Positions 12,788-47,000 of a stretch of DNA of 64,000 nucleotides are shown here, in pieces; the stretch's first letter is position 1; each line of letters starts with the position of its first letter. Under the pieces are notes generated by a model. The model did no database searches. It was not told where the DNA came from and saw nothing but the letters and a program-made list of their open reading frames with translations. The stretch covers positions 64,001 to 128,000 of the IMG/VR virus record IMGVR_UViG_3300045988_163304; one strand, written 5' to 3'. A program made the translations under genes and the position numbers. Origin of the DNA: a virus.

Positions 12788-12814
12788 TATAATATAGAAA
12801 ATGGAGGATAATAA

Positions 12815-13360: not shown

Positions 13361-13392
13361 ATCGTTTATTTTGTAGTTTATAGCCATTTGAT

Positions 13393-14952: not shown

Positions 14953-14973
14953 GGCCAAAATACAAAAAAAAAT

Positions 14974-15028: not shown

Positions 15029-15030
15029 AA

Positions 15031-15525: not shown

Positions 15526-15570
15526 AAAATAGCCGAGAATTAAATAAAACTTAATTCTCGGCTTATAATA
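15526..15570. terminator. bidirectional intrinsic terminator where plus- and minus-strand blocks converge
   Basis: 13-bp stem agccgagaattaa/ttaattctcggct flanked by A- and T-runs. Confidence 0.55.
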
Positions 15571-16579: not shown

Positions 16580-17257
16580 TTAATTACCGCAAGCGCCGCA
16601 TCCACTAAATGCATTATAAATATTACTTGCAGTGTAAGGGCTACAAGTAATATATGCAGGAGTAGGATATGGACGTAAGGTGTTTAATAAGTCAGAAGTC
16701 TGATTCATGTTCTGAATTGTTAAGTTGGCAGACTGTAATTCAGTACGCAGACTCTCAATCTTGTCGGTAGTTAAATAATCAAGAATACGCTGAATACCAG
16801 CGTTTTGATTAGTTAAAATATCACGAGTATTTAAGTTACTAGTATTTACAATATCGCAAGTATTTTTAGCATTCTCATATCTCACAGCGTCAATATTGCG
16901 ATTAGTTGTGCAACAACATTCTTGCTGAGCGAAACGATTATCGTTTAGCCCTTTCATTACTTCATATTGGATATTACCCCAACGATTAGTTGCGTCACGT
17001 TCAAAAGCGCTTACTTCAGAAAGAATCATATCTTGATTGCGGAACATATCTTGGCGGCCTAAACCGTCAGTTAATTCAGCACGAGTTAAAGCGCCTTGGG
17101 TAGAACCACCGCCAAATAGTCCACCGCCTCCCCAAGCCAGTAGGAAGAATAAGAAGAATACCCAAGTCCAAGTGCCGCCAAAACCATTATCGTTGTGGTC
17201 GCCTTGAGTCATTGCCATGATATCAGCAGGAGATAATCCGTTTTCAGTTAGAGCCAT
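16580..17257 (-). CDS. membrane protein, Gly-rich with a Cys cluster (CCCTT; C-terminal SGCGACGN); no TAG
   Basis: Intact 225-aa ORF; TM segment WTWVFFLFFLLAWGGGG; RBS AAAGGAA. Confidence 0.5.
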   Translation of the reverse strand: MALTENGLSPADIMAMTQGDHNDNGFGGTWTWVFFLFFLLAWGGGGLFGGGSTQGALTRAELTDGLGRQDMFRNQDMILSEVSAFERDATNRWGNIQYEVMKGLNDNRFAQQECCCTTNRNIDAVRYENAKNTCDIVNTSNLNTRDILTNQNAGIQRILDYLTTDKIESLRTELQSANLTIQNMNQTSDLLNTLRPYPTPAYITCSPYTASNIYNAFSGCGACGN

Positions 17258-18940: not shown

Positions 18941-21049
18941 TTAAAATACTTTAATCCATACACGCCCATTAACTTTAACTTTTCCCGTTCCCCATTCTTC
19001 ATAATCAGGAACTGCTGAAATAGTACCAATCGCGCAATAGCCTTTATCTCTATATTCTTCATCAGTCATAATAGAAACTGTTCCATCAGGACCAGAGCAT
19101 ACTGGACGCCCAATATTCTTTTTAAATTCTTCATGAGATTCATATGGATAAGCAAGAACACGTCCACTTACTGCTATTGGAGTTTTTGCCTATTCAGTTT
19201 CACCAATAGCAAAACCAAATGTGTCAGATGTAATATTAGCGCCCGGCATCATGCGCTCAGTTGAAGTAATAAGAGTATCGTCACCCACTTCAATCACACA
19301 TTTGCCTGGTTCAATAGTATCTCCTTCACGGAACTCAGCATAGTCATTCCATACTGCTCCATATAAAGGTTGATAAGCTGTAATTTTAGACCCACTCATA
19401 TTCATATAAGAAGTATAAGTTGAGCCATTATTAGAAATATTACCCCAAAAATTAAAACCGCCATTAGCACAAAAACTAATATCTTCACAGTCAACTAAAT
19501 TAGAATTTAATTTACTTGGGAAGACACAACCACCCTCACCAGATGTTATAAATGTAGCTCCATTAGTTGAACCAAAACGCACTGCAGCATTATTTACATT
19601 TGTAGATGCTGTTCCTATCATATCCACTAAATCTGTAGAATAATATGCCCCAGATCCATTTTGATACTATCCAGATAAAACTGGTAATCTGACACCTCTA
19701 GCTGGTTTAGATGTTGTAAATTTAAATGTTATTTTTCCACTCATTGTGTCACCAGTTTTTTTAACATAATTAGAATCATGATTATGAGAATTTGAAGCCG
19801 CTCCAATATTAGCTGGAGTTATATTAATATCTTTAGCAGCACTACCATTATAAGTAAATTGGTTTGTTCCTTCAGTAGTTCCACTGTTTAGTTTAATGAC
19901 TAAATTATTATTAACTTTATCGGCACTACCAGCTTTAGTAGCCGTTGTTGCAGTAGTCGCATTACCATTTAAATTGCCATGGAACCCATTGGGCTAAATG
20001 GAAGCAACTAACTCTCCATCAGCGGCAGTTCCCTTAGTATTTCTATAGAAATTCCAAATTCCACCATATTCATGAAAATCAACTTGATTATGTCCACTAT
20101 ATCCAAAATCAATAGCATGATAATAGGTATTAGCATTACCTTCACCACGGAATTTTGCACTTTGAAAATAATGAGTTTTATCAGTGCCCGTAGCGATATA
20201 AGGAGCAGTAAATAATCCAGTATCATTAATAGTAACTGTTAAATTATTTTTAATGACTTTACCTGTTGCATCAGCAAATGTAGAAACAGCATTTGCAGTA
20301 GAAGTATTAGGTCCTATCACCGCGCCATCAATATTTGTTTGGGCAACAGTCCAATGAGAATCATTTGCTGATAACCCATCAGCAATACAGATAACTAAAT
20401 CTCCTATTTCACAAACTTTTCCGGCATAAGTTCCCGCTTTATTAACACGATAAGTCCAACCTGTTTCATGGGTATCTGGTAAGTTATGAGTGTTATCAAG
20501 AATGCCTTTAAATATCATAGCATCATTGGCACTCAATATTTTATCAACATACTATTTAGTTGTTAATTCTAAATTATCTACTGGGTCTTTGGCTACTTTA
20601 ATACCTTTACCAGCTGTAATTTCAATAGCATGGCCCGTCCCATTAGTATTGTCAATGACAATACCGCGACCTGCTCCAGTATTAGAAATTAAAATTTCAT
20701 CTTTTCCAGCTACATTAGGAATAACTAAAGAACCATTTTTAATACCAATCTAAGTATATTTAGCTTCAATTAAATTTTTTGTAGTATCTTTTAAATTAAA
20801 TGCTAAAATAGGATAAACGATATTATCATTAGTAGGCATTTCAGATGCTTTTAACAAATCACTGGCATAAGCATTTAATGGAATACGATTAGTTCCTATT
20901 TCTGCTTTTGTTGTTGAAGTACCATCACCCGCAATATCAATATAGAACTTGCCATCATCTGTAGTAAAATAAGCAAATCCTTCTTTAGCATTCGGGACAT
21001 TGGTTGTTAAATTTTTAGCCAAGCCCTTACTTACTTTAAATAAAGCCAT
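18941..21049 (-). CDS. tail fiber protein (conserved Gram-positive fiber N-terminus; C-terminal domain shared with gene 22523-23512); at least five TAGs
   Basis: The four same-frame track ORFs are joined by TAG. N-terminus FAYFTTDDGKFYID; RBS AAGGGAG; TAA at 18941. Confidence 0.65.
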
Positions 21050-22488: not shown

Positions 22489-22528
22489 CATAGTAAAAAT
22501 ATACTATGTGCCTTTATTTTTTTTACCT
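22489..22528. terminator. bidirectional terminator hairpin
   Basis: aaaggcacatagt / actatgtgccttt followed by T8. Confidence 0.55.
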
Positions 22529-23512
22529 AATTCTAATCCATATACGCCCATTTACTTTAATATTATCTGTTCCCCAAGTATCATAATAAGGGATTTCACT
22601 TACATACCCAACTATCGCATCAGGCCATTCTTTAATTTCTTCACGAGTCATTAATGATATTGTTCCATTCGGACCACTACAAACAGCCGCTCCCGGCTTA
22701 TATAATTCTTTATCTTCATTAGGATAAACTAATACTCTACCGCATACAGCAATAGGAGTTTTTGCTTTTTCAGTTTCTCCAATAGAAAAACCAAATGTAT
22801 CTGAGATAATATTAGCTCCTAACTATAAACGCTTAGTTGATAATTCTAAATCTCCAAAACCAGTTTCAATTATACAACGGCCTGGTTCTTTAATATAAGA
22901 TTCTCTATACTCAGCATAGTCATTCCAAACTGCACCACGGATTTTCCCTGAGCAATCTAGAAACCCATCTTCCTTACATTCTAATCGTAAATTATAATGT
23001 TCTTTACCATCTGTATATTTAGAAATATTAAAATTAATACCACTTTTATCAGCAGTTGATTTAGGGTATAAGGTAAGTTGACCATTTTCTAAATAAGTCT
23101 AATTATAATTATTAGTCTATCTTATTAAGATTTTATTAGTAGTAAGATTTCCATTTTTGAATCCAGAAATTAAAACTTTTTTAGAAGTATCTCCTTCTTT
23201 ATAGTTTAAATATCCAGTATCAGATAAAGAACCATCACTAAATGATAGACATTTATTAAGAATGGCAGTGAGATTAGAATCAGGATTGTTTTCATCAGTG
23301 ACAGTTAGAATATAATTATCGTTTTTATCTTTTTTCAATGTAACTTTTCTTGTGTTCTATATCTATAAATGAGTTCCATCTTTATTTAAGCGCAATCGAA
23401 TACCAGTATCTTTACCCGCTACTGGATAGGCTTTTATTATTTCTAATAATTTAATTAGCGCGCTATTCTATAAAACTACTGTATCTTTATATGGAGATTT
23501 ATATTCTGCCAT
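22523..23512 (-). CDS. tail fiber protein paralog (C-terminal ~150 aa homologous to gene 18941-21049); multiple TAGs
   Basis: RBS AAAGGAG; AVWNDYAE...DTFGFSIGETEKAKTPIAV...KVNGRIWI aligns with the other fiber. Confidence 0.6.
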
Positions 23513-23630: not shown

Positions 23631-24246
23631 TATTTTATTAAAAATTATCAATCCACTCTAAAGCAAATGTACCTTTCTAATGTGCTTGTTCTAAATCATG
23701 AATTGCCTAAATAAATGCTTTATCAAAAACAAATTCTTCTTGAGAGATATTATCTAAATCCCAATTCTGACCTTGTTCTACAATCGCTTCTGCAACTAAT
23801 GTATTCAATTCATACATTAAATGGCCAGCAGCATTAAGACTAAAGAATTTAATAGCAAATTTTACAGTACCAGCATATTTAGTAGCGGCATTTTGAATTA
23901 CCCAAGGCATAATAATTTTTTGATTTACATTATCAGTAGTAATATCCATATAAGGTACTACATAATAATAGGCTTCACCTTTTGCATTTTGAAATTGAAT
24001 AATGCAACAAGTATTAGATAAATCCATGCCATCAAAATATCGATCAAATGTAAAGTATAAAGTCTCAGCCGAATGGTCCTGAGAGACGATAATGAAGGAC
24101 TTAGGCACTTTTATTTTACGTTCATTCAAATCGATAGGGATTAATTCTTCTTTAGGTGGAGTTGGAAGGAGAATGGCTTTGGAAGTTCGCATCTATTTGT
24201 CAATTGACCAAAGCTTATTCTCATAATCTTGATAATTAGTAATCAT
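23629..24246 (-). CDS. structural protein; N-terminus paralogous to gene 24276-26210; two or three TAGs
   Basis: MITNYQDYENK vs MITKYKDSVRL; shared ...AETLYF..DRYFD.MDL core. Confidence 0.5.
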
Positions 24247-24275: not shown

Positions 24276-26210
24276 TCACTTAATATTAATATAGAATGCA
24301 TCACTATTTAGTGAATAAGCACTTCCATTATATTTATTAGTTACACGAATAAAATAATTACCTTCTTGATTACCAACCATTGAAGAGGTAATTGTAGTAT
24401 GCTTTCCACCTTCAATATTAGAAGATTCCAATTCACAAACAGGAATAGGATTAGTATCATCACTTTCTTCATTAGGTAATTGATATAGAGCACAAACTAC
24501 TTTATCGCTATATACTTTTTCATTAGTGGGTGTTAAAACATATTTAACATCAAATGATTTTTGAGTATACTTATCTGTAACTCCATCAGTAGATGCATTT
24601 AAATTAATCCAATATTGTCCACCTTGCTTGCTTAAACCTAAAATAATACTATTCTCTTCAATCTTAGAAGCTAAAGGAGAAACAATATATTCTTTAGATT
24701 TAGTTTCATCTAAAGTAGTTTGATTATTTAAAAATGTTTTAACTCCAACAATATATTTGCCTTCTTCTCTAATAGCAAAGCTATTATTTTGAGTAGAACG
24801 AATCCACTTTGAAGTGTTAACAGGAGTTTTATTCCCATCTTTATACCAAGCATATTGGACTAAAGCCTTAGGTTCAACTCCTACAGCAGGAGCCTCATAA
24901 GCGTCTTTATTATCATATCCAGAAGCAATAGCAGTCAGAATAACTTCATTACCAGTTAAAAATGCCACAGAATCAGCTACAGATAAATCAATATCATAAC
25001 CTTCATCTTTTAAATCACTATTATTAGAAGTAATTGTAATTTCAGCAGGAGCATCGGGCTCAGGACAAATTACCACTGGAGTATGCTCAAGAACGCCTTG
25101 ACCAATTTTCTTATTTTCTTTATCAAAAATAATTCCTTGAGCTTGAATATAATATTCACCAACGCCATTTACTTCAATAGTAGCATAACGGGCATATAAT
25201 TCACTCTTATTTGGAATAGCAATCTCTAAATCATTCCAAGTTCTAACATCTTCACTAGATGCGAGATTATAAACACTGCCCTCTTTAATGTAATAAGTGC
25301 CAGCAGGGTCTAAAGGAATACGTTTATCATTTTCATCTTTTTTAGAAACTAAAACATATTCATCTACAGGATCATCTTCTCCAGCAGGAGTAGAATACTT
25401 AATATCGGCGGCACCGGCTTGAGCACGAGCATATAATTTTACAGGTACAGAAGATAATTTTTGAGAATTGCCACTATCTACCGCATTACCTGCTAAATTT
25501 ATAGTCTATAAAGCTACTGTGGCACCAGGGTCAGTAACCAAGCCATTGGTAAGCCATTTTAAATCCTCAACTTTAGCTTCGCCTTCACCGAAACTACTAT
25601 TTTGAAGCATATTTAAAATATCATCATTAACATTAATAACTGTGGGATTAATTAAAACCAATCCCTCTTTAATATTAATTGTTGAAACTAAAGTATTTAA
25701 ACTATAGCTAGTAATATTATCACGCTCAGTATAAAATTCAACTGCGAAACTTAAAGTACCGCTTTTGCCAGTTAAATCTTTAGCTACAGGCCAACCAAAA
25801 ACAATTTTTCCAGGTTCAGCATCAACGCTCTTAGAGAAATTGACAGATTGGCCAGAAATGTCACCAATTTTCCAATTGATACGAATATTACAATTGTTTA
25901 AATCCATATAATCAAAATATCTATCAATACTAAAGAAAACAGTTTCAGCTAAATGATCTCCTTGAACTGATAAACCATTAGCAGTAAAATCAGAAGGAAT
26001 TGTAATTTTGCGGCTATTAGCATCAATTTCAAATAAAGGCTCATCCAAAGGAAGTCTTAAAAACTTTTTATCTAACTCACCAATTTCTTGTATATATCCA
26101 AAAAAGCTCTCAAGGTTATCAATTTGAATTTTACCATTACTAGCTTTGTCAATATCTTCATACAGTTTTTGATAAGCTAATCTAACAGAGTCTTTATACT
26201 TTGTAATCAT
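24276..26210 (-). CDS. tail or baseplate structural protein with Ig-like C-terminal repeats; one TAG at 25506
   Basis: Two same-frame track ORFs joined by TAG; the gap has no other stop. Confidence 0.55.
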
Positions 26211-26322: not shown

Positions 26323-26520
26323 TTAAACTTCTTTCCATTGATTTAATTCTTCTTCTGGAATAATTACATTTTGAACAAAATCTTTTCCATTTTTAGTAAG
26401 ACGTTTGTCATGGTCAGCAATTAAACGAAGTTTTCTAATGTAATATATATCTTCAAGATGCACGGGAGAAAGAATTGTTCCGTTTGTGCCTAAATATTCA
26501 TACATCACAATTTTAGTCAT
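26323..26520 (-). CDS. small hypothetical protein
   Basis: Intact 65-aa ORF with RBS AAGGAG. Confidence 0.4.
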   Translation of the reverse strand: MTKIVMYEYLGTNGTILSPVHLEDIYYIRKLRLIADHDKRLTKNGKDFVQNVIIPEEELNQWKEV

Positions 26521-26539: not shown

Positions 26540-29500
26540 TTAATGAATAATTGTCAGTGCTCCATCAGGAATATCAGTAAATTTCTGGAGAGCAATACTT
26601 TTATCAAGATCAGTATACCATTCGATAGAATTTATCTATACAGGGCTTACACTAAAATAACCTTGAATAGCTTCATTTTGCATATTAGCATTTGTAAGTT
26701 TTGATTTACTATCAGATGTACCAATAATAATTTCATTAATACCAGAACTTCTTGCACTATTATAGTCACTCATACTACTAAATACAATACTTGCACTGCC
26801 CATTTTTTGAACTTCTGATCCAATAATAAGAGTAGTTAAACTAGGAGCCCAAGCATTCTTAATAGCATCAGTTTGAATTTCTGCGATAGTACCATTTAAA
26901 TTACTATTTATTAAAGAAGGCGTATTAACTGTTCCACTAGAGCCTATTCCTTTAAAAGTATAAGCTTTTAATATTCTTAATCCTTCTGGGAATTCAACCC
27001 ACACTAATTGGTTAGAACTATCAAACGTACCTTTGCTAAAATAACGTAGATTACATTTAGTCTATCCATTTTCTTCAAATTTTTGGAAGAATACATGAGT
27101 TAAATTTTCACCATAACAAACAGGAACAAGAACTGAATCGTAACCATTAAGTATACCTTCAGTTTTTCCTACAGGATTAGTTAATCGTTTAACATCTTCT
27201 AAAGTAGAACACCATAAATCACCAGGAGTACCAAATGTGGCATCAATACCTATTACACGTTTTTCTACACCATCGACTGTGAAAAATGCTGGTACTGTTA
27301 GTTTTCCTTTAACTTTTTTATTTAAAGCTAAAACGATACCATTATCTAAACTCCAACGAGGATCTAAATTATCTATATACCGTGAAGAAGTGTCTTGAGT
27401 TGAAGGAGTGAAATACTCAGGATGAATATCTTCATATACATTAATAGGATTATTATCAAATACTGCATAAAATGTAGTGTCTTCAGTAATCATATACTCT
27501 TCTAATTTCATAGCAGAGGAAGCAGTTGCAGAACGATTATAACCTAAGAATTTATAAGTCTACTCTAATGGTAAATCGCTATCATCTTTCCAAGGAATAA
27601 TAGTAGACATTACAGCATAATTACCATGAGGAATTTTTTTCTCTTCGATTAATGTATTATCTTTATAATAATATTTAACACTCCATTTGTGGATAGGACA
27701 AATAGCATAGAATGTATAAGTGTGAATATTATTATCAAGAGTTTGTTCACTCCATTTATTAATACTTTTATCAATATTAATAAGAATATCAGCACTAGCA
27801 GAATTAGTTAATGCCCAACCATAGAAATCATGATTTGGCTTTTTCTCACTAACATCGCCAAATGCATCAATAGGATCTGCAAACCAAGTTTCGCCTTCTT
27901 TTAAGGTCATAGAACCAATTAATTGATAACGACCATCATTACCTTCATCTTCATCCATAATTACAAATCTAGCAGTATATCCCTGTTCTACATTTGCACA
28001 GAAGATTGTTAAATCAGGATAAGCAACTTGAATAGTATTACGCAATTCAGATTCTTTAATAACTTCTGTATTATTAATATAAATAATACCAGAGATATCA
28101 GGAATGTTTTTACTAGAATTTTTAATCCATTTCTTATCACTAATAAATTCTTTAAACATAGCTAAATCAGTAATTTGATTTATTTTATCTTCTGGGATTG
28201 TTTCATCCTTACGATAAATTTCGCCATTTTCAACTTTAATAGTCCATGCATCAAAATTAGTATAAGTGTAAGGTTCTAGTCCATAATGACCATTATCTAC
28301 ATAATAAGTAGTAGATGGATTGCGCTCATCGTCGACTGTCATCTAAATATATGGACACCAATTAACATTAGTCATAGAAATCTAAGAAGTGTTAGTCTAT
28401 TGGCTACGAATAGTATAATATTGCTTTAATAGCTTATAACTATCATAACCTAAACCACCACCAGCGATATTTAGAGAAGCAATCACTGTATCTCCTTTAT
28501 CTCCAGTTGAAGTCTTATCAAAGAAACCTTGGAGGTATAAACCAGGATTAGCATGTAAATTACCTTCATCATCACGAGTAGGATTTTTATATTCATCTTC
28601 AGTAATTATATTCTTTAATAAGTTGGCTTCAACCAATTCAAGATTTGTAATACTAGTAGGTAAATATACAGTATTTAATGCTACACCCTTAGCAAATTGA
28701 ACGTTAATTAAATTAGATCCAGTAGCACGGAAATTCTCTAATTTTTCACAACTAGTTAAATCTAATACAGGAGAAGCAGCATTAAACTGAATATTACTCA
28801 TATTTACTTCTTTTAATAAAGGCATACCTTTACTATCAGAAGAGCTGGCAGGAATACTGAATTGGTTAACATTATCATTATGCCAACGCTCTCCATTTAC
28901 ATCCAAACCATCATATCCTAATTTCAAACTAGTTAATTTAGTAGCATCACCAGAAATTTCAAACTCTTGCCAATATAGATTACTCATATCGCCAAGGTCT
29001 TTCATTTGGTTAATGCCATAAACATATAGTAATTGTTCAGGATAATTTTCACTCTTACGGACACCATTTTCAATAGAGTCAATATTAAATCTTAATGCAT
29101 GAACACCATCATATTTACGAGAAGGATAGGCTTCATTATCATCACCAAGAGTAACATAAGAAGAATGGGCTGGAGTTAATGTCATCCAATATTCAGCATC
29201 AAATAAATGATTTTTAGTTAAAGTGCTTTCATCCTTGAAATAAGGATCGCTAGCCGTTTCAATCCATTTATCTGAAGTCTTATTTTTATTGTTCGCGGCT
29301 ACACGACCACGAATGCGGTTCGCACCACCACGTTGATAGTTACCTTCATTTAACCAAGAGTCAATATACTCTAAACGGTTAGATAAAAATTGTTGACGAG
29401 ATAGACTTCTATTTCCTTGTAAAGCATAGAAATAAGTACCATTAGTATCAACAGTATATACACCAGTTGTATCACTGCTAATATGTCCAGTAGTACCATC

Positions 29501-32500
29501 TAAGTAAGAAGCATCATTTGTAATAGTGATATATTTATAATATTCATCTAAGTTAACTGCTACCAATGGACGAGTGCCCAAGTCAGCTAAATTATTTGTT
29601 GTATTATAATCAGTTAAATAATATGATTCAATACGATCAACAGTTTTTAAAGGTGGCTGTTTTAAATTAGAACCAAATACACTGGTAGTAATACCACGTA
29701 AATGTCTATACTTAGGAATAATTAAGCCAGTTTTAAAATATTTATAGAAGTTATTCCATAAAACACTATCAGAAGTAGAATAGTTACCATCTTCAGTAGC
29801 ATCAACATTATATTCAAATGAAGGAATACCAGTATTATTAATACCTAATTGAGTATCAATATCATAGAAAAGTGGATACCAAATATAATCTCCACCTTCT
29901 TTTTGAGGGCCCCAAGAAGCCATCATGCAGTTTTTACCACGAGAGTCATAACATTCAAAAATTTCTGTCATAACAAAATAAGTAGCCATATATTCTTTAT
30001 CGAAGTGGTCACTTAATTCATAAGTAAATTTATCACCACGATATTCTTGCGTGTCATATTTATAAGAGCGATCACCATAAATAATAGTGGTTCCAATATA
30101 ATATTTATTTGGCTCATAAGTTTCAGCAGTCACAGTAGCTTTAGTTACTGCTTTACCGCATTTAGCATTTCCATCATAGTTATAATATGTCTTACTTGCA
30201 TCAAATGCTTCATCTTTACATAAAATAACTAATCTATCAGCCTTTGTGTCTAGCTCTTCATCGCTATAAGATTCCAAAGTATAATAACGCTTATCAGGAT
30301 TGAATGTATCAGTACTATAACAAGGAACATAAGTAATATTATTATTTTTATCAACTTCACCAGTATATAATTTAGTTTTAATAGCACTAAATAATACTGT
30401 TCCAACATAAGCAACGATATATTCATGACTATTTTCTTGATTGGGATTATAATCAGGATTCTTTTTATAATAAGTAGTGCCTTCTATATATTCTTTAGCT
30501 AAGGTATAAATCTACTCAGAAGTTGATGGATTAGGTGTCATAATATAATGTTTATTACTATCAAATAATTCTTCACCAACATCACAGATTTTATAAGTAC
30601 CATTTGATACAACTTTTTCAGTACAAGTACTCCAAACCCAAGCTACAGCACGTTCCCAATTAGAATAATCTTTCAATAAATGTTGAGCGCGATTTTCTTG
30701 ATTTAATGTAATATCATCCTTAGAGAATGTTAATGTTGGGTCTTTCTTACATTCTCCATCAGGAGCCATAATATAATCAAGGAGATCCTCATCATTATGA
30801 TAACGATATTCAAATGAGTCTGCTACCACAGGAGCAGATTGAACAGCATTTAATACACGAGAACCATCAGCATTAAATACATCAAACTTTAAATCTTTAC
30901 GATCTTGTGGATCGCGATATGAGCAGAAGGTACGACTATTATTTTCAAACTCCCAACATTCTGCTACTTTAGGCATACTCTTAGTACCATCGTCTATGAA
31001 TTTAGCTTTTGGGTCTTTGCCAGTAGTATTATCAAGAGCGAATCCATATACTTCGTCAGAGCCTTTATCTAAAAGCATGTTATACATACCAATAAATTGA
31101 TAGATAGGTTCTGTGCTACCATCAACTGGTTTCTTTTTGTGGAACGCAAGTACACGGAAACCTCGTACAGAAGTACGATAATCATCAGTATTTTCAACTT
31201 TAAAATCACTATATCCAGGTTTCATAATATACCATTTATTATATTTAGGATTACTTGAATCAGCTACTTTTAATTTTGAATAAACAGTTGGATTTTCAGC
31301 CATTAATTTTTGATATAAGGCATATGGGCCTAAATCAAAATCTTCTTTACTAGTAATCACAATATTATCTTCTAAGACTGTATTACTTGCTGTTTTTGGA
31401 TTGCCTTTATGATTATAATAAGTATAAGTAGCATCAGGGATATATTCAGTTGTTTCAGTTTCAACAGTTTTGTCAGAATCTAAAACCTAAAATGCTTTTG
31501 CATTATTATAATCGTCTAATGGATGTTTAGAATAAGCATTTTTAACCATATTTGCAAATCCCATATTATAAGTTCCAGAAGATTCCATATAGTCAATCTT
31601 CATAGTAAATTTAGTAGTACCGCAAGTATAGTTATTAAAATACCAATATTTTTGACGAGTTTTTTCATCGCCACGTTTTACATAAGCAGTATTTTCAATA
31701 TAGAAAGTATTAGGTTTATAAGGATTAGTTTCGCTAAATGTAACTTCCTTTTCACCATTTTCATCTTCATAATATTTAATTTTTAATTGGCCAGTAGCAG
31801 AATCAACTAGAGGACCTAATGTTGTACTTAAAATATAAGGCTTCTAAGTAGAACCTAATACATCAGCATTATACTATTCTCTGAATGGTCCACGGTTTAA
31901 GAAAATGTTAACACGCTTTTCGCCATCTACCGCATCGTTATTTTTAGTTTTAACTTTATAATTTCTACGAGGATAGAATTCAGATGAAGTTCCTTGAACG
32001 CTCATTGATGCGCTATCACTAATAAATGAAGGACAATGATATTTATAATAAGTTTCAACAGCTTTTTGTTTTTCAGCTGCTGTCGCACCATCACCAAATA
32101 ATTTATCAGCTTTAGCTAATTCTTCCAATTTACCTTTATTATAATACATTTCAAGCGGAGTATTAACAAATTCAACTCCAACATTTAATTTAACTTTTTT
32201 AGAGTAAGGAAGTTTATTTTCACTATCTTCTAATTTAGTAGTATCAAAAATAATATAAGGCATTAATGGAGCATCAGGATGCTCATTATTATACTTTATC
32301 ATATTAGTATAACTAAATTGGAATTCATCGATAGCAGTATTTTCTTCTGCTAATTTATTTTGATCATAAATATCTACATTCTCAAAATCAGCAGCATAAT
32401 TCATGACAATATCATTAACATTTAAATCAGTACGATATACACGGACTTTATATAAATCAATATCGCAATAATCACTGTTAAATTCAATTTTATCATTTTC

Positions 32501-34702
32501 TACAGTAAATCCATTTTCTTGAGTATTTCTAACAACACTAGTTAATACACCATTTAAATAAATGTAAATTAAGTTTTGAATTTCTTCTTTGCTATATTTA
32601 CAAACAACAGATAAAGTAATAATTTTATTTTCAACATAAGACACATTTACTGTATTAATACCATTAGAGAAAAATGCATCCTATGGACCTAAACATAAGC
32701 CAGTAACGGCCTTAGTATTGCCAGAATAATAACCGCCTATGACATTATTTAAATTAATTTGTTTTTCAGTTTTAGCAAATTTTAAATCATCATATTCCAT
32801 TCTACGTTTAACGCCATTTTTATCAACAAATTCAACTTCATAAGTTTTTAAATACCAAGCTAAAAATGCATCATAGTTAGTGTATGTAGTATTAAATTTA
32901 CCAGTTTCTTCATTATAAAATGCTTTATATAAATCACCATCATTTTCATAGCGAGTAATAGTACGAATTAAATTTGAATAGTCTTGAACATTACGAATTT
33001 TAAATGTTAATTCAATGGTATGAGATTGTTTAGTATCTTGAGGACCATCAGGATTTGCAAATACAGTAGGTCCAATAGGAATAGATAATTTAGCACCATT
33101 ACTAATACGTAAACAAGTTTTATTATCTTCGTCAGTGGTCCAGCCATTATTATACCAATTAAAATTAGTAAATGTTGCTGTGCAAGGTTCAGCTCCTAGA
33201 GCAGTAGAAGAATTTACTAAAGTAGTACGTTTAGCTAACGTTTCAGAATTAGAACGTCCGCTACCTACTGTATTTAATAAATAAGTTAAAAAGCCCTGCT
33301 TCTAAATACCAAAGTCTGTTCTTGTTGGGTCGTTTACAACACGAATTTCAATTTTACGAGTAGTCTCACGCGCTCCATCACCACAAGTAATAGTGTAGTG
33401 ATTAATTACATCTAATTCAGGATTAGCAATTTCAAAAATCGCATAATTTTTAGAATCAGTAATTGTTTGAGGAGAATAAGAAAGTTCAATATTGTTACGT
33501 TTAAAATGCACTATTGGGTTTTCAGCCTATGGATCAAAAACCCGGAAAGGAATTTGAATAGTGTCATAACTATAATATTCATCTTTATAATCTCCCAACC
33601 AAATAATTGGAGGAGCTTGAGGGTTTAAACCATCATAAACAGCTACTTCAAAAATTAAAGGATTAACTTCAATTCCTTTTTTACCATTAATAGATTGGAA
33701 TAAACGAATCCAAACTTTATGATAACCATTAGTTACAGTTGTATATTGTGAAACATTAACACTCTATAAAGTAGTTGCATTCGCCGTTAGAGGCACGCTT
33801 AAAAATGGTTCATCTTCATTGTCGAAATAATATTCAACAATTTTATCCATCGCACCATTAACATTACATTGTAATACTAATTTATTGGGATCAAAATAAC
33901 TTAAATTAGAAAAACTACTTGATTCTTGTAATTCTAATTTAGAAGTTTTAAATGTTATTAAACGAGTAACTGTGCTTGAATGGTTAGTTTGGCTAGCTAC
34001 TAACACTAATCTTGAAGAAGCATCATCCTTAGCTAATTTACCAAATTCAAAAGCATATTTCTCCCCATCAGGTACTTGAAATGTTCCTGAATTATACTGA
34101 TTATAGTTAGTACCATCATCAGTATACTCTAATTTCCAATTAATTGTAAGGATAGAATCATAAGAATTACCCTTTTTATTTTTGGCTGATGTAGCAACAA
34201 ATGTTACTTCTTGAGAGCGTCCATTAATTAAGTTAACAGTAGGTAATGGGTCTACAGTTAATTCGATGTCAGAAGCCAATGAACCAGGGGCATCTCCACC
34301 ACCACCACCAGCAACAGTTAAACGACGACATAGCACATTTTGAAATGCTCGCTGAACTTTTATTACACGATAAAAACAATTATCGCCTAAGTTGATAATT
34401 AAATCATCTTCTTCGGGATACTCTCCGCCTTCAATAGCTCCGATTGGAATATTGATTTCATCTTCTAATTTTTCAGCATCAGTCGGAGTATAATTGGCAT
34501 AATAAATACCAGAATTACTTCCTGAGCCACCACCACTACCGCTTCCTAAAAGCTTTCGTGATACCATTGTGCCATCAGCTTGAGTATAGTCTATGAAAAT
34601 TTTACCAGTATCGACTGCAAAATAAACATATCCATCATTAAAACCCATTAAATCCAATTTCGCTTCAGTACCACGAACAGGGATGAATCGTTTATTGCTC
34701 AT
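26540..34702 (-). CDS. giant (~2720 aa) tail fiber / host-recognition protein, read through 11 in-frame TAGs
   Basis: Nine consecutive track ORFs (33764, 33302, 31874, 30512, 28397, 27560, 27062, 26636 ...) are all in one frame, each bounded by cta (= TAG) on the plus strand. The gaps 32645-33301 and 33512-33763 were checked codon by codon and hold only TAG. N-terminal fiber motif GYVYFAVDTGKIFIDY; TAA at 26540. Confidence 0.55.
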
Positions 34703-34762
34703 GCAAGTATCTCCTTTCTATCTTAAATTTTATATAAAACAAAATTATATATAAAAAAAATG

Positions 34763-34788
34763 GGAGAGGAATTTTCCTCTCCCAAATT
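34763..34788 (-). terminator. hairpin terminator (minus-strand sense)
   Basis: gggagagga / tcctctccc with T8 on the minus strand. Confidence 0.5.
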
Positions 34789-41398: not shown

Positions 41399-44005
41399 TT
41401 ATAATAACCTTGGCGGTGCTTTTGTTGCTGTAATTGTCATTGTTCCATTGTGTGTTAATTGTAATGATATTTTATTAAGTATATATTCACCATGTATATC
41501 ACTTTTATTATCATCTACTGTAATAATACTATTTGGTTCTAAATAATATATAGGGATAGTTTTTAAACTAATCTTTTCATTCATATAAGCATATTGATAA
41601 AGTAAATCATTTAATTCAGTATAAGCTGTTTTGCTCTATGAAGTAATATTAAATTTATTTTCATAAATAGAAGATAAAGGCATATAAGCATACCCATCCT
41701 ATAACATATTCTATTTTTTATATAATTCATATTTTTCAGGATTAATATAAATAATATTAGGAGTATCTCTATAAATAATAGACTTAATAGCATCATTATT
41801 AACAATTTTCGGCCTATCTCCAATAGCTTTTACAGAATACTTGCCAATAAAACTACTAGCGTCTTCTATAAAATCCATCCAATAAACAAGAGCAGAAGGA
41901 TCATTAACATAAGTGCGATTCCAACCATAATACACTTTTTCCTAATCCGTTAATTTATTTGTATGTCCCGCTTTAACAACATAATATTTATCTTCATCAT
42001 CAGAAGTAGGATTATAAATATCTCTCCAATATAATAACATATCGGCATAATAACTTTCATATCCAGTCTATCCATTTTTATAAGTTGGATTTAATTTAGC
42101 TAAACGTATAGCATAATCATCATCATGACCATATTGCTAATAATCACAAGCCATTTGGTATATTAATTCACGCCAATTCTATTTTGTATAATAAATATTT
42201 TCAGAATCTTGAGTAGGAATAATTGGTTTGTAAACAAAAGCTCTACCACCATGCTAATACAATGGATCAAAATAACTATTCCAAGGATGAGTGCAAGAAG
42301 CGCCATGACCAACATATCCAATAGTATTATCTGATAGTAAATCAAAAACATATAAATCTTCTTTCTCATTATCCCAACTACCATAATAAGGTCCAATTTT
42401 TGCTCCATTATAAGTATAAGCCATTAAATCATTATCAGTTGCAGGAGTATAAATTTCATTTAAATTAATTTTCGCGCCGTTTTCTTTTTTATAATATTTA
42501 CTTAATACACCGGCAGGATAATCACCAAAATATAATTTATATAATTCTGCCCAATCTTTAACGTCCCACCAATCTTCACTCAATGGCTCTCCTGTTAAAG
42601 TATCATTTGGGTTAAGCGTTTTTGCAAACTCTCCAGTGGCTTCTGGATCATAACTACGATAAGTAATACCAGCGAACGTAGTATAAATCTTTGGTTTTTC
42701 ATCAATAGCATATCGTAAATGAATTGGAGCTCCCTCACTATTAGAAGAAGTTGAATTTTTTTTACCCCAAATAATAAAATTATTTTTTATTTTAGAAAAA
42801 TCTGGCGTATTCTAAAATGAAGTAATTAATATATTATCAGAAAAATTATATTTGCTCTTAGAAGTTAACATAGCATTTTCTTCATATAATTGGTTATATT
42901 CATAATTAGTTAAACTATTTTTATCAATAGCTTTTATTTCTTTATCTTGTATTACATCAGCACTATTTTCTGTTCGGACAACACTCGTCCAAGATTGATT
43001 AACATAAGTCATTTTTTTCTAAAAAATAAATTGTCCATTAATATCATAAAAATATTCATAAGTCCCAAAAGTAGAGCAAATTTTATCTAATACAGAAGTA
43101 ACTGTATCTCCTACATTTACAGCTAATCCATCTTCTGTTGGCCAATATAATTCTACATCTCGATATCCAGCAGTAGAATTAGCTTCAATCTTAGAAACAT
43201 AATATCCTATCTTATCAGTAATACCATCTTTTAATTTTATTTTAAAATCTGTCGATCCAATAGGAGTTAATTCATTATTAGTTAAATCTTGTAACTAAAC
43301 TTTTCTACCATCCATAGTATATTTTGTCATACTGCCGTCAAAAGTAATATTTACATAAATACCATTATCATCTAAGAAAGCATATAAATCGCCATCATTA
43401 TATTTCAAAAGCTCTAACCCCCGATCAGTTAAATCTTTTATTAAAATATTATGAAAAGGTTCATTGCCGTAAAAATGAATCATTTCTCGGACAATCTAAA
43501 AAATAGGAATTTTAACATTAGTAAAACTACCATCTGGATTTTCTCTGCGCTCAACAGCAAAGTCTATCGGATTCGGGAAATTTCCTCCCACTTCTCCATT
43601 TAATAAACACATTTTATCTTTTCCAGAAATTGAAATCATACATTGATTAGAAGATAAAGAGGTGTTAAAATTAGTAATAACAAATACTCCTTGCGGAAAC
43701 CAAATAATATTTTCATAATCATCATCAATATTATTAATTAAACCAATATATAGTTTAAATTTAGTAGTCAAACCCCAATAAACATCGGTAATATTTACTC
43801 CAGTAGAAACAAGAGAAATCGAACAAGACCGACGTATAGCGGAGGATCCATCAATATTAATGGATCCTCCAGTGGCCTTTCCTTCAATTAACTCTATAGG
43901 CTCTTCATCTTTATTTAAACTAATTATTTTTATAAAAATTTCTTTCTAATTATTTAAATCTAATTTTTTTAAAAATTTTGTATCTAATAATGGATTATTT
44001 TTCAT
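41399..44005 (-). CDS. tail or baseplate protein (~865 aa); many TAGs
   Basis: Six track ORFs (41399, 41711, 42254, 42812, 43295, 43496) share one frame. Confidence 0.45.
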
Positions 44006-44022
44006 TGATACATACCCGCCTT

Positions 44023-47000
44023 TATCTCTCTTGTATAGCCTTTATCTAATTCAAGGATAAAATTATTCCAAGCATCTTTTACTTGCTATACTAATTTTTT
44101 CATTTGAGCGTCTTTTGAAGAAGCATCTGATTTATAATACTCATAATACTATTTAGAATTGGAGTCAAGAAAACCAGTAAAAATCTAGAGATATTCAGTA
44201 TATTTTGATTCATAATAATCTTTTTTTGATTTATATAATGTTTGTTTATTTGTATACATTGTTTCTAAGATTTCAGCCTATTTTACTGCTGCTTCACAGG
44301 CTTTAATATCTTTACTTAAAACTAAATCAATATACCAATAAAAAATACCAATAGAAGTAATAGCGGGGTAAGTATCATCAGGTTTATTTGAAATTGTAGG
44401 TTTATTTGTAAATAGCTCCAATAGTAAAGGATTAATACGATATTTATTAAATAACTAACTATTGCACCAATAATACAAAATAGCAATATTAGAAATTCCT
44501 TTCAACAAACTTAAATACTAAAATTTTCTCCAAGTAATTGAATCCGTTTCATTAAGAGCAGTAATTTTATAATTTGCAGGATTATTAATTTTTACATTTT
44601 TATTAAAAATATTTCTATTATTTTTATTATAAGCTAAATATAAATTATATGCCGTTCCTGATGCATCTAATAATTTATTATAAGCAGAGATAATATTATC
44701 AATTGTGCCCCGTTCAGTTAAAGCATTATCTCCTCCAATAGTATTATTTAAAAATGTCAAACGAGAACCAGTATTTAATCCTATGGTTTTTTCTATCATT
44801 TGTCGCTCAGGATAAATAATTTTATTATCTTTCATAAAAGTATTAAAAGACTCACTATTATTTGCCGTAAGAGTAATATTATCTTGATATTTATTATTAA
44901 TGTATAAATTAATTGTACCCCCAAATAATTCTGCCTGTTTAGGATTGTTTAATTCTAAAAATTGACTAATAAAATTATAAGTATTATTTTTTTTATCCAA
45001 ATCCGCTACTGGCAAATTATTATAATATTCTATAAATGTTTTTGCCAAAGCATCTCTATCTTTCATATAATATTGCACTGAATCATCAAAAACAGTAGCT
45101 ATTTTATAATTAGAATTTTCATAAATATAGTATTTTTTCTATTTAAAAAATTCATCATTCTCTATAACATTATTAACTTTAATAAATTCATCAGTCAGGC
45201 CTTCATTAATTAATATAGATTGATAGGACTAAATTAAAGTATTATAAGCATTTATAATATTATTTAATCCATTACCCTGCTCTGATAAATCAAATAATGA
45301 TTCAAAACATTTATCTCCATAACTATTTGAATTAATATAAGAAATCTAATCGGATAAAACATCTAATACTTTACGATAACCATCAGATACATAAGGCTTA
45401 CAAGTATTATCAATTAAATTAATTAAAGCTTTAATTTTAGCAGCCCGCATCGAATTTTCTTCAACAGTATATACTGGTTCATCAAATTCAATACTATTAT
45501 ACATACTATTATCAATAATTTCTTCAGAATTTGATAATTCAAAAATGAGGCCTCGACTTGTCTCTGCTTTGATATTTTCTTGAATAGTAGAAGTTAAAAT
45601 AGCTAAATATGATTCTGATTCTTGTATACCCTATGGCTAATCTATATATTTAAATCTATTTAACAATCTATATCTCATTAGAAAAACCTAGGTCCAAGCT
45701 TTTGCCTATGTCTCATATGATAAATAATTATTAATAGCTAATAAACCATAATGGTTTTTCGCACTTTCTTCAGCGCACCACTATTTTATATTTAATGTTT
45801 GATTCAAATAATTTTTATAAATACTATTTATCATAAAATTAGACCATTTTAAATCTAAAGAGGCTTGATAAATACTTTCAATTTTATCAGCATATAAAAT
45901 TAGAGTTTTAATAGTTTCACTATCACTATCTGACAAATTATTTGTTTTTCCTTCGCTAATAAACTTATCAGCTAATGATTGATAAGCTGAAAAGGCGTTA
46001 GTAGCATAATCTCCACCAACAGCATACTAAAATAAATCTTTTACTGTTTTAAATCCGCTGTTATTTAAATGAATATTTCCAATTTTTTCCATTGTACTTG
46101 CAACCTATTCATAAGGATATAAAGCTTGATTAGTTTGTTGATTAATACCAATATATTGAATTAACGCCTCAGAGTCTGGCTCTCCTTCTTTTATCCCAAA
46201 TAAAAATCGTAAATTATTATGAGCTGTTTTTATTTTCCAATAATTTTCCAAACAACTAAAAATATCACTAGAAATTGAAGTTAAAAATAGATTATCTAAT
46301 TCAGTATCATTTTCTCCATCAATTACCATATCTTGATAAGTAGCTATAGATACAGATAATTGAGTTAAATTATTCCAACTTTCTAAATAATATTTTAATT
46401 GTTTCAATCGAGCTTGAGCTTCAGTAGAACTAGTATCAGAAGTTCCATCTATTTGTTGATAATGATTTTTAATTGAATTTAAAATTTTCTCAATAGAAAT
46501 TGAAGACTCTAAATTAGTTAAAAACTTTTCATCATCTTTATATTTATTATAGTTTGTAGACTAAAAATCATCTAATATTAAAGCAATATGCTACATAATT
46601 AAATTATATAACCATAAACCTGCTTTATACTAATAAATATTAGTATTATATTCATCAGCTTTAGTTTCTAATCTATTAATCTAAAGTACATAATTTTGTA
46701 CTAACATTAAAGCATTTTCAACAACCCCATTGCGCTAATTATATAATTTTTTTAATAAAGTTGTAATTTTAGCTAATTTATCATTAATACCAATTTTAGA
46801 AGTTTTTTGAATTAAATCAACTAAATCATTTTCTTCATTTTCAACTAAATTTAATTCATTATACATTGTTTTATTTATCTATAATTTACGAATTAAATCT
46901 TCTACTTTTTGTTTATCTGCCATTTTTTGTTCTTCTGTTGTGCCTTTAGCCCAAAGATCAGCTATATTATTACGCTAAGTTATTTGAGCCTAATTTGTAT

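What the first reader, a model, noticed from the sequence alone, without database searches (positions are those of the whole stretch)
26540..34702. Nine ORF fragments collapse into one 8.2-kb (~2720 aa) fiber gene
Consecutive track ORFs 33764-34702, 33302-33511, 31874-32644, 30512-31360, 28397-30277, 27560-28342, 27062-27511 and 26636-27004 are all in the same frame. Each is separated from the next only by TAG (cta on plus), and the gaps checked codon by codon have no TAA or TGA. The chance of eight independent frame matches is about 1/6500. This would be an unusually large host-recognition protein with a conserved fiber N-terminus and Ig-like repeats.
Basis: seen in the sequence. Interest (0 to 1): 0.6.

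Follow-up and report, generated by a model that had tools for sequence, protein, structure and literature searches.

The report
Giant amber-recoded phage tail protein gene
The ORF fragments are one 2,720-codon phage tail-module gene in which 14 TAG codons are read as glutamine, a real but already well-known kind of stop-codon recoding in gut phages; the protein belongs to a large, uncharacterised family of giant multi-domain proteins.

Summary
On the minus strand, ATG 34702 to TAA 26540-26542 is one frame of 2,720 sense codons. It holds 14 in-frame TAGs and no TAA or TGA; shuffles expect about 168.

The whole window is TAG-recoded. ORF coverage is 46% under code 11 and 95% under code 15.

Ninety-one near-full-length homologues (2,431-2,871 aa) exist in public metagenomes. 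Near-identical relatives swap TAG only with CAA or CAG, with one AAA exception. Seven 54-57% identical relatives have no TAG in the 1,360 codons fetched and carry mostly CAA/CAG at four of six window TAG sites. Every segment between TAGs is under purifying selection (dN/dS 0.09 overall). So this is one gene, and TAG means glutamine.

The gene lies in the tail module, about 20 kb downstream of a 2,765-aa tape measure gene. Family-level domains are:
- a conserved N-terminal motif followed by beta-sandwich domains;
- a CotH-kinase-like domain split by large insertions;
- an internal leucine-rich repeat region;
- a Listeria-Bacteroides repeat;
- a C-terminal BspA-type leucine-rich repeat region.

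"Fiber" and "Ig-like repeats" are only partly supported. No suppressor tRNA was found in the sequence I could reach. I rate this a new member of a known kind, of modest interest.

The parts
26540..34702 (-). Single coding sequence: 2,720 sense codons with 14 in-frame TAG read as Gln, ATG at 34700-34702, terminal TAA at 26540-26542.
   Evidence: frame and stops. (91 near-full-length homologues). (TAG exchanges with CAA/CAG). (dN/dS 0.09).
34710..34717 (-). Shine-Dalgarno sequence AAAGGAGA, 7 nt upstream of the ATG.
   Evidence: upstream sequence read directly.
34761..34784 (-). Terminator-like hairpin (10-bp stem, 6 G-C pairs, followed by a T-run). It lies between the upstream 543-aa fibre-like gene and this gene. 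No terminator-like site was found inside the gene on this strand.
   Evidence: This is a consensus scan only; the total count is not above shuffles.
33764..33766 (-). First in-frame TAG (codon 313). The other 13 are at 33527, 33302, 32681, 31874, 31844, 31487, 30512, 28397, 28382, 28343, 27560, 27062 and 26636 (lowest coordinate of each codon).
   Evidence: Codon 674 (32681-32683) is Gln in 90 of 91 homologues and is CAA in L003 and L005.
34547..34702 (-). Family-conserved N-terminal motif, aa 1-52 (F-PVRG-E...GY-YFA-DTGKI--D), followed by Gly-rich linkers. It may be the tail-attachment module.
   Evidence: conservation. (Mtd_N Pfam hit in distant relative P0111 only). (no Pfam hit for the window sequence).
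33767..34285 (-). Beta-sandwich (Ig/FN3/macroglobulin-like) domains, aa about 140-312.
   Evidence: AlphaFold model, pLDDT 85. (Foldseek E 2e-4 to 5e-3, low TM scores).
29273..32065 (-). CotH-kinase-like region, aa about 880-1810, split by large insertions. The conserved core is aa 1548-1651 (window 29750-30061), with family-invariant D1586-x-R-x-K-N and Y-D1614-x-D1616-T-Q-L-G.
   Evidence: Pfam CotH above the gathering score in relatives P0110, P0095, P0117. (mapping to the window). (invariant residues). The window sequence itself is below the Pfam threshold.
28403..29035 (-). Internal leucine-rich-repeat region, aa about 1890-2100.
27443..27715 (-). Listeria-Bacteroides repeat (Flg_new)-like segment, aa about 2330-2420.
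   Evidence: (Pfam hit in P0065 above the gathering score), mapped to the window.
26543..27385 (-). C-terminal BspA-type leucine-rich repeats (LRR_5), aa about 2440-2720.
   Evidence: window: 17.6 bits, below the gathering score. (15 of 18 family members hit). (family profile against PDB 4gt6, E 6.7e-30).
26323..26520 (-). Small 65-aa ORF directly downstream. A 65-69-aa ORF is called at this position in all five related loci examined; homology was not tested. Function unknown.
   Evidence: synteny; translation.

Best explanation
The interval 26540-34702 (minus strand) is one gene of a roughly 198-kb, low-GC (29.5%) phage of the human and possibly animal gut. The phage decodes TAG as glutamine (genetic code 15). 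Ribosomes start at ATG 34702, read through all 14 TAGs as Gln and stop at TAA 26540, giving a 2,720-aa protein.

Shown:
- the single frame;
- conservation of the full-length protein;
- TAG exchanging with CAA/CAG in relatives;
- purifying selection across every segment;
- recoding of the whole window.

Inferred from the literature: a phage-encoded suppressor tRNA(CUA), possibly helped by a shift in release-factor balance, makes TAG readable late in infection, so the full-length protein is made only then.

The protein is most likely a distal tail appendage (fibre or adhesin). A conserved N-terminal module would attach it to the tail. Beta-sandwich domains, two LRR regions and a Listeria-Bacteroides repeat would bind the cell surface of a probably Bacillota host. 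The function of the CotH-kinase-like core is unknown. It keeps invariant acidic and Asn residues in its core motifs, whose correspondence to the CotH catalytic positions is inferred. It may bind or modify an envelope component, or it may act after ejection. The virion location and all of these functions are inferred, not shown.

The confidence of 0.85 is a blend. I put about 0.97 on 'one gene, TAG = Gln' and about 0.6 on 'external tail appendage or adhesin'.
For: One gene:
- 2,720 codons carry 14 TAG and no TAA or TGA, against about 168 expected.
- There is a Shine-Dalgarno sequence and a unique start.
- 91 homologues of 2,431-2,871 aa exist, many covering 95-100% of the query.
- A survey of 1.84 billion cluster representatives gives 163 clusters at E<=1e-30, most of 2,100-2,960 aa.
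- phrog_14959 (profile length 2,494) matches collinearly.
- Gene order is the same in five related contigs of 150-238 kb.

TAG means Gln:
- Against the 95%-identical L001, all five TAG differences are TAG versus CAA or CAG.
- In IMG/VR relatives at 91-97% identity, the differences are TAG versus CAA/CAG, with one AAA.
- Seven relatives at 54-57% identity have no TAG across about 1,360 codons. At window sites 1072, 2102, 2120 and 2381 they carry mostly CAA or CAG.
- Codon 674 is Gln in 90 of 91 homologues and is CAA in L003 and L005.
- TAG sites align to Gln as often as ordinary Gln sites do, 32% against 37%.

Selection: dN/dS against L001 is 0.09 overall and 0.045-0.45 in every segment between TAGs, including the 31 codons after the last TAG.

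Genome-wide recoding: ORF coverage is 46% under code 11 and 95% under code 15, and 27 of 36 ORFs contain TAG.

Tail context:
- A tape measure gene lies at 54353-62650.
- The gene at 41399-44005 hits a tail-protein PHROG.
- Two genes flanking this part of the module, 18941-21049 and 22523-23512, share a C-terminal module.

Domains.

Precedent: TAG-to-Gln recoding in gut phages is described in 10.1101/2021.08.26.457843 and proven by proteomics in crAss-like phages in PMC9523058.
Against: - No tRNA and no Rfam family was found in the 64-kb window, nor in 27 related loci, including about 7.5 kb beyond the window start. The decoding agent is therefore not identified here. About two thirds of the genome could not be read.
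- There is no peptide evidence.
- The fibre assignment rests on context and family-level domain hits. The window sequence passes no Pfam gathering threshold.
- The CotH relationship is seen only through relatives. It was not recovered by fold search of the partial model or by a profile-versus-PDB sequence search.
- TAG use in this gene (18% of Gln codons) is lower than in the neighbouring tail genes (34-60%). That is unexplained but not contradictory.
Confidence: 0.85

Rival explanations
1. Under the standard code the fragments are separate small genes, or the decayed pieces of a pseudogene.
For: Code-11 ORF calling yields 8 or more ORFs of 69-626 aa. Some short representatives in the protein library (96-300 aa) look like such fragment calls.
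Against: - Only TAG interrupts the frame; TAA and TGA are absent against about 168 expected.
- The segments between the code-11 ORFs are conserved and under purifying selection.
- TAG positions change between relatives by TAG-to-CAA/CAG swaps.
- Seven relatives have no TAG across the 1,360 codons fetched, which span six window TAG sites.
- Most fragments lack a Shine-Dalgarno sequence and ATG of their own.
- The whole window gains 49 points of ORF coverage under code 15.
Confidence: 0.01
2. TAG is decoded only partly or only at certain times. Early in infection, or at low suppressor level, translation stops at codon 313 or a later TAG. This would give truncated N-terminal products, or simply keep the protein from being made until late. 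The TAGs would then act as a timing or dosage switch rather than a plain synonym of Gln.
For: - Borges et al. propose exactly this for late and lytic genes, and Peters et al. find the reassignment late in infection.
- Within the window, TAG use is uneven. It is zero in DnaE, dUTPase and several small genes. It is 34-60% of Gln codons in the tail block at 37.5-64 kb and 18% in this gene.
Against: - TAG positions are not conserved beyond close relatives, and counts range from 0 (over the 1,360 codons fetched) to 44 per gene. No specific truncated isoform is therefore conserved.
- One TAG sits at an almost invariant Gln inside a conserved motif (codon 674).
- Downstream segments are under strong purifying selection.
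- This rival extends the main explanation rather than replacing it.
Confidence: 0.3
3. TAG encodes an amino acid other than glutamine, for example pyrrolysine, tyrosine, serine or leucine.
For: ARAGORN labels any tRNA with a CUA anticodon as tRNA-Pyl (in unrelated phages). At site 1397 most homologues have Tyr.
Against: - In relatives at 91-97% identity, TAG is exchanged almost only with CAA or CAG: 5 of 5 against L001, and all but one AAA in L171-L175.
- Across all relatives, Gln codons are by far the commonest sense partner of TAG: 30 of 61 non-TAG partners and 18 of 57.
- The invariant Gln at 674 is TAG here.
- The substitution spectrum at TAG sites mirrors that of ordinary Gln sites.
Confidence: 0.03
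4. The protein is not an external receptor-binding fibre. It is instead an internal or ejected virion enzyme, or a non-virion protein, whose main job is done by the CotH-like kinase domain. That job might be phosphorylating host or phage proteins after injection.
For: - The CotH-like core keeps invariant Asp, Asn and Lys residues across the family. In B. subtilis CotH, D228 and D251 are required for activity (PMC7821199).
- A kinase needs ATP, which is not available outside the cell.
- CotH domains in phages are noted as unstudied (PMC8008677).
Against: - The position among distal tail and fibre genes, downstream of the tape measure.
- The surface-adhesin domain types at the C-terminus: BspA LRR, Listeria-Bacteroides repeat and internal LRR.
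- The N-terminal motif resembles the Mtd_N-type fibre N-terminus by eye; one distant relative (P0111) carries a true Mtd_N at that position.
- CotH proteins can also act as surface adhesins or invasins in fungi (own knowledge, not tested here).
Confidence: 0.25

Closest known systems
TAG-to-Gln (code 15) recoded gut phages: crAss-like, Lak and the Jade/Sapphire/Agate-type clades of Borges et al.
   Same: - In-frame TAG occurs only as a sense codon, while TAA and TGA serve as stops.
- Standard-code gene calls are fragmented and coding density is restored under code 15.
- Recoding is heaviest in structural genes and absent from some replication genes.
- Related contigs of 186-238 kb, one of them a circular 197.7-kb genome, match the mean sizes reported for two of the large clades, which from the order of the list appear to be Jade (210 +/- 35 kb) and Sapphire (201 +/- 22 kb).
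   Different: - Clade membership was not tested, because no terminase phylogeny was made.
- No suppressor tRNA or release factor was found in the sequence I could reach.
- The replication module resembles SPbeta-type Bacillota phages: a YorL-like DnaE at 39% identity and a YorF domain.
- There is no nucleotide match to any GenBank phage.
CotH protein kinases (PF08757; B. subtilis spore-coat kinase CotH) and the unstudied phage CotH-domain proteins
   Same: - Relatives of this protein pass the Pfam CotH gathering score (47.7, 33.7 and 28.9-33.4 bits against 23.8).
- The matched core maps to window aa 1548-1651, where the D-x-R-x-K-N and Y-D-x-D motifs are invariant in the family.
- Hankyphage and Bacillus phage G gp353 share this region at about 25% identity.
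   Different: - The window sequence itself is below the Pfam threshold.
- The domain is stretched over about 930 aa by insertions, against about 270 aa contiguous in P0110.
- It is embedded in a 2,720-aa multi-domain protein.
- No C-type lectin or DGR target is present, and no DGR-like repeats were found.
- The CotH fold was not recovered from the partial model.
- Kinase activity is untested.
BspA-type leucine-rich-repeat surface proteins of gut bacteria (PF13306; PDB 4gt6, 4fs7, 4h09)
   Same: The C-terminal 280 aa belong to this repeat type at family level. The family profile matches 4gt6 at E 6.7e-30, and 15 of 18 relatives hit Pfam.
   Different: Here the repeats form the tip of a phage protein rather than a bacterial cell-surface protein. 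The window sequence scores 17.6 bits, below the gathering score of 27.7.
Mtd-type and other phage tail fibres with the Mtd_N N-terminal domain (Bordetella phage BPP-1 Mtd)
   Same: There is a short N-terminal R-G...G-x-x-Y/F-x-x-D-T-G-x-I-Y-x-D-like motif at the start of a tail-module protein. One distant relative (P0111) has a true Mtd_N hit at the equivalent position.
   Different: There is no Pfam hit for the window protein or its three fibre-like neighbours. There is no C-type lectin variable domain and no DGR.
phrog_14959 / phrog_24896 (PHROGs families of unknown function)
   Same: There are collinear matches. Window aa 130-577 match profile positions 501-932, and aa 1550-1810 match positions 1472-1711 of 2,494 (E 1.8e-18 and 1.3e-27).
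   Different: The PHROG family is unannotated, so membership says nothing about function. Only about a quarter of the protein is covered by the matches.

Membership tests
Genetic code 15 (TAG = Gln) phage gene | The reading frame is interrupted by TAG only; TAA and TGA are absent from the frame and serve as the terminators. | tested here: met
   14 TAG and no internal TAA or TGA in 2,720 codons, ending in TAA. Shuffles expect 168.
Genetic code 15 (TAG = Gln) phage gene | Genome-wide rise in coding density and gene contiguity when TAG is read as sense. | tested here: met
   46% rises to 95% over the window and 66% to 100% over the gene. Recoding TGA instead gives 48%.
Genetic code 15 (TAG = Gln) phage gene | TAG positions align with Gln (CAA/CAG) in homologues, including homologues without TAG. 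| tested here: met
   All 5 differences against L001 are TAG versus CAR. Seven relatives with no TAG in the part fetched carry mostly CAA/CAG at four of the six window TAG sites covered. Q674 is Gln in 90 of 91.
Genetic code 15 (TAG = Gln) phage gene | A suppressor tRNA with a CUA anticodon (and/or RF2) is encoded by the phage. | tested here: inconclusive
   None was found in the window or in 27 related loci. However, only about one third of the roughly 198-kb genome could be read. Some recoded phages are reported to lack such tRNAs (PMC10607447).
Genetic code 15 (TAG = Gln) phage gene | Peptides spanning TAG positions carry Gln. | not testable with these tools
   No proteome data are available. 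Precedent exists only in crAss-like phages (PMC9523058).
CotH kinase family (PF08757) | A Pfam CotH match above the gathering score. | tested here: not met
   The window protein has no hit at E<=0.1. The feature is met only by relatives: P0110 at 47.7 bits, P0117 at 33.7 and P0095 at 28.9-33.4, against a cutoff of 23.8. These align to the window at E 1e-26 to 1e-30.
CotH kinase family (PF08757) | Conserved catalytic and metal-binding Asp residues (D228 and D251 in B. subtilis CotH). | tested here: inconclusive
   D1586, N1591, D1614 and D1616 are invariant in the family and lie inside the stretch that matches CotH profile positions 151-249. A residue-by-residue correspondence to D228 and D251 was not established.
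CotH kinase family (PF08757) | The atypical kinase fold of CotH. | tested here: inconclusive
BspA-type LRR (PF13306 LRR_5) | A Pfam LRR_5 match above the gathering score, or a match to solved BspA-like LRR proteins. | tested here: inconclusive
   The window scores 17.6 bits and the 89%-identical P0004 scores 22.5, against a cutoff of 27.7. Fifteen of 18 relatives match, best E 2.2e-60. The family profile matches PDB 4gt6, 4fs7 and 4h09 at E 6.7e-30 to 5e-15.
Phage tail fibre / receptor-binding protein | Encoded in the distal tail module, downstream of the tape measure and baseplate genes. | tested here: met
   Tape measure at 54353-62650, tail-protein PHROG at 41399-44005, and the same gene order in five relatives.
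Phage tail fibre / receptor-binding protein | A recognised fibre N-terminal attachment domain (for example Mtd_N). | tested here: not met
   There is no Pfam hit for window aa 1-312. Only the distant P0111 has Mtd_N. BLAST to neighbouring fibre-like genes is marginal, E about 4e-4 in a 36-protein database.
Phage tail fibre / receptor-binding protein | Presence in the virion and a role in adsorption. | not testable with these tools
   This needs virion mass spectrometry, imaging or genetics. The phage is uncultivated.
phrog_14959 | A significant, collinear HMM match. | tested here: met
   E 1.8e-18 for the N-terminal half and 1.3e-27 for the C-terminal half, in collinear order.

The most novel reading that the evidence does not exclude
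The family could be a previously unrecognised class of giant tail appendages, about 2,200-2,900 aa long, found in roughly 200-kb gut phages that probably infect Bacillota. These appendages would carry a catalytically competent CotH-type kinase domain expanded by lineage-specific insertions, displayed or delivered by the tail together with LRR adhesin modules. That would make it a virion-borne kinase that modifies the host envelope, or host proteins at entry. Variable TAG loading (0 in the part fetched to 44 per gene) would tune when and how much of it is made.
Probability: 0.15. Interest if true: 0.6.

Novelty: new member of a known kind. Interest (0 to 1): 0.3.

Why it matters
Practically, any standard-code annotation of this phage shatters its largest tail genes into dozens of false ORFs. 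This gene alone becomes eight or more. That hides host-range determinants from homology and structure searches. Code-aware gene calling, which the public protein collection already uses, fixes the problem.

Biologically, the result adds a well-documented example outside crAss-like and Lak phages. It includes relatives with no TAG across half of the same gene, which give clean, non-circular evidence that TAG means Gln.

The protein family is large, with 163 clusters at 50% identity at E<=1e-30. It is unannotated and combines a CotH-like core with adhesin repeats. If the CotH-like domain is active, it would be an unusual enzymatic component of a phage tail and a lead on how these uncultivated phages recognise their hosts.

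Tried and rejected
- Nucleotide search of the gene against GenBank phages found no match. tblastn gave only distant hits at 25-26% identity.
- Pfam on the window protein itself gave only a sub-threshold LRR_5 hit. Pfam on the N-terminal 312 aa and on three fibre-like neighbours gave nothing useful.
Only TAG-free segments could be modelled, so the CotH fold test was done on half a domain and was uninformative.
- A profile of the CotH-like region against PDB sequences found no CotH hit.
- Suppressor tRNA hunt:
  - ARAGORN on the window and 27 related loci, and Rfam on the window, found nothing.
  - A generic tRNA(CUA) pattern scan of IMG/VR hit only unrelated phages of higher GC content.
  - A scan with the window-end gene 63352-63984 found no relatives.
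- DGR hypothesis (CotH proteins in phages are often DGR targets): there are no template/variable-repeat-like direct repeats involving this gene.
- Internal sequence repeats ('Ig-like repeats'): self-BLAST found none.
- A first 92-sequence MAFFT run timed out. I replaced it with pairwise global alignments.

Full report
**1. The observation**

Their offsets from 34702 are multiples of three, so they share one frame. Translating that frame from ATG 34702 gives 2,720 sense codons, ending at TAA 26540-26542. The frame holds 14 internal stops and every one is TAG.

There are therefore 15 segments, not 8 or 9. The chance estimate of 1/6500 is far too modest. Shuffles of the same sequence give a mean of 168 in-frame TAA+TGA (minimum 134), against none observed. 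The other two frames carry 185 and 507 stops.

Only nine codons lie upstream of the ATG before a TAA/TGA, and none is a start codon. AAAGGAGA sits 7 nt upstream of the ATG. A strong terminator-like hairpin (34761-34784) separates the gene from the one upstream. No terminator-like site lies inside the gene on this strand.

**2. The whole window is TAG-recoded**

Reading TAG as sense turns 49 scattered ORFs covering 46% of the window into 36 ORFs covering 95%. Recoding TGA instead does nothing (48%). Twenty-seven of the 36 ORFs contain TAG.

TAG use is uneven across genes:
- It is zero in the DnaE-type polymerase (5407-9378), the dUTPase and a tail-lysozyme-domain gene.
- It makes up 34-60% of Gln codons in the tail block at 37.5-64 kb.
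- It makes up 18% of Gln codons in the gene under study.

**3. One gene, and TAG means glutamine**

A search of 5.8 billion proteins returned 119 hits. Ninety-one are near-full-length homologues of 2,431-2,871 aa, the best 96% identical, on contigs up to 238 kb. The collection's gene caller had already called these as single genes. Their DNA (five loci, 28-95% identity) again contains only TAG in frame, with 6 to 44 per gene, and ends in TAA.

The codon-level comparison is decisive:
- Against the 95%-identical L001, all five differences involving TAG are TAG versus CAA or CAG.
- Five IMG/VR relatives at 91-97% identity show the same pattern, with one AAA exception.
- Seven relatives at 54-57% identity have no TAG at all across the roughly 1,360 codons fetched. 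They carry mostly CAA/CAG at four of the six window TAG sites in that stretch. This part of the gene is therefore an uninterrupted standard-code ORF in some lineages.
- Codon 674 is Gln in 90 of 91 homologues and is CAA in L003 and L005.
- TAG sites align to Gln as often as ordinary Gln sites do, 32% against 37%.
- dN/dS against L001 is 0.09 overall and 0.045-0.45 in every segment between TAGs, including the last 31 codons.

Assembly error is excluded, because independent samples carry the same TAGs.

**4. What the protein is**

The gene lies in the tail module. Reading the minus strand from high to low coordinates, the order is:
1. a 2,765-aa tape measure protein, 54353-62650, with PHROG tape-measure hits down to E 1e-44;
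2. large distal-tail ORFs;
3. a gene with a tail-protein PHROG hit, 41399-44005;
4. two fibre-like genes;
5. this gene;
6. a 65-aa ORF whose position is kept in all relatives examined;
7. four further ORFs, two of which (22523-23512 and 18941-21049) share a C-terminal module.

This order is the same in all five related contigs.

The window protein passes no Pfam threshold on its own. The family gives a consistent domain map, which I transferred to the window through pairwise alignments:
- **aa 1-52:** a conserved N-terminal motif followed by Gly-rich linkers. One distant relative, P0111, has a true Mtd_N hit at this position.
- **aa about 140-312:** beta-sandwich domains. The AlphaFold model has pLDDT 85 and gives weak macroglobulin, FN3 and arrestin-like matches.
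- **aa about 880-1810:** a CotH-kinase-like region.
- **aa about 2330-2420:** a Listeria-Bacteroides repeat.
- **aa about 2440-2720:** BspA-type LRRs. The family profile matches PDB 4gt6 at E 6.7e-30.

The CotH link is by transitive homology. P0110, P0117 and P0095 pass the CotH gathering score (47.7, 33.7 and 28.9-33.4 bits against 23.8). They align to the window at E 1e-26 to 1e-30. In P0110 the CotH match is contiguous over 273 aa. The corresponding window segments lie at about 890-964 and 1556-1650, so the domain has been stretched by insertions.

The core motifs YDSRGKN and YDIDTQLG are invariant across the family. In B. subtilis CotH, D228 and D251 are needed for activity (PMC7821199). 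Their equivalence to D1586 and D1614/D1616 is plausible but not established.

Fold-level confirmation failed. Only a TAG-free half of the domain could be modelled, and a profile-versus-PDB sequence search found nothing.

A phmmer survey of 1.84 billion cluster representatives found 858 relatives of aa 1398-2101. Of these, 163 have E<=1e-30, and most are 2,100-2,960 aa long. The family is large and unannotated. Its PHROG counterparts are of unknown function.

**5. The phage**

There is no nucleotide match to any GenBank phage. The DnaE is closest to SPbeta-type YorL polymerases at 39% identity. A related contig from a human-gut cohort carries a YorF-domain gene upstream. With 29.5% GC, this suggests a Bacillota host, but that is an inference.

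Close relatives in IMG/VR are 166-198 kb. One contig of 197,697 bp has this very gene split across its ends, so the genome is circular or complete at about 198 kb. The size and the TAG recoding fit the large clades described by Borges et al.. Clade membership was not tested.

**6. Mechanism and its gaps**

Shown: TAG is a sense codon equivalent to Gln in this gene and across the window.

Inferred from the literature: a phage suppressor tRNA(CUA), sometimes with release-factor changes, switches decoding during infection. This confines full-length synthesis of TAG-containing genes to the late phase.

I found no tRNA and no Rfam family in the window. I also found none in 27 related loci, including about 7.5 kb beyond the window start. 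About two thirds of the genome was out of reach. A generic tRNA(CUA) pattern scan found only unrelated phages.

**7. Verdict**

The 'fiber with Ig-like repeats' description is only partly right. The protein is a multi-domain tail-module protein dominated by a CotH-like region and LRRs.

The recoding phenomenon is well known and experimentally validated elsewhere, and public gene calls already treat this family as single genes. This is therefore a new member of a known kind. The modest residual interest lies in the uncharacterised family and its possibly active CotH-like domain.

Noticed in passing
window 54353-62650 (-) and 44002-51300 (-): There are two more giant recoded ORFs. One is a 2,765-aa tape measure protein with 59 in-frame TAGs (PHROG tape-measure hits). 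The other is a 2,432-aa ORF with 60 TAGs and no PHROG hit. Under code 11 this 26-kb block is only 21% covered by ORFs.
   Followed up: partly
window 1-15550 versus 37500-64000: TAG use differs sharply between genes. It is zero in DnaE (5407-9378), the dUTPase (13886-14443), the tail-lysozyme-domain gene (2437-3267) and several small ORFs. It reaches 34-60% of Gln codons in the tail block. Some plus-strand replication-side genes (638-2383, 3564-4760, 4757-5362) nevertheless carry 3-5 TAGs each.
   Followed up: partly
window 18941-21049 (-) and 22523-23512 (-); 23638-24246 (-) and 24276-26210 (-): Modules are shared between neighbouring tail genes. The first pair shares a C-terminal stretch of about 110 aa (nucleotide repeats D1 and D4, 73-75% identity, motif GAVWNDYAE-RE). 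The second pair shares an N-terminal stretch (repeat D5, and both hit phrog_25888).
   Followed up: no
L031, L034, L038, L048 (IMG/VR relatives of DnaE, 56-60% identity): The DnaE match spans about 5.1 kb instead of 3.97 kb. This suggests a roughly 1.1-kb insertion (intron, intein or homing element) in the polymerase gene of some relatives. The window's DnaE is uninterrupted.
   Followed up: no
L176 and L185 (IMGVR_UViG_3300045988_140174, 197,697 bp): The homologue of the gene under study is split across the two ends of this contig. This indicates a circular or complete genome of about 198 kb for the lineage.
   Followed up: partly
L189 (human-gut contig that reaches beyond the window start) and window 5407-9378: The replication module resembles SPbeta-like Bacillota phages. 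It has a YorL-like PolIII-alpha (39% identity to SPbeta), a YorF-domain protein, a DnaB helicase, RecJ, an anaerobic ribonucleotide reductase and its activase.
   Followed up: partly
L177-L179, L181, L184, L186, L188 (IMG/VR relatives, 54-57% identity): These relatives have no in-frame TAG in the roughly 1,360 codons of the gene that were fetched. L180 and L183 have 19 there, and L007 has 44 in the whole gene. TAG load in one orthologous gene therefore varies from none to heavy between lineages.
   Followed up: partly
window 302-733 (-) and 16651-17220 (+): These code-15 ORFs overlap longer genes on the opposite strand. One has 3 TAGs and no CAA/CAG; the other has 8 TAGs. Both are probably artefacts of reading TAG as sense on the non-coding strand.
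   Followed up: no
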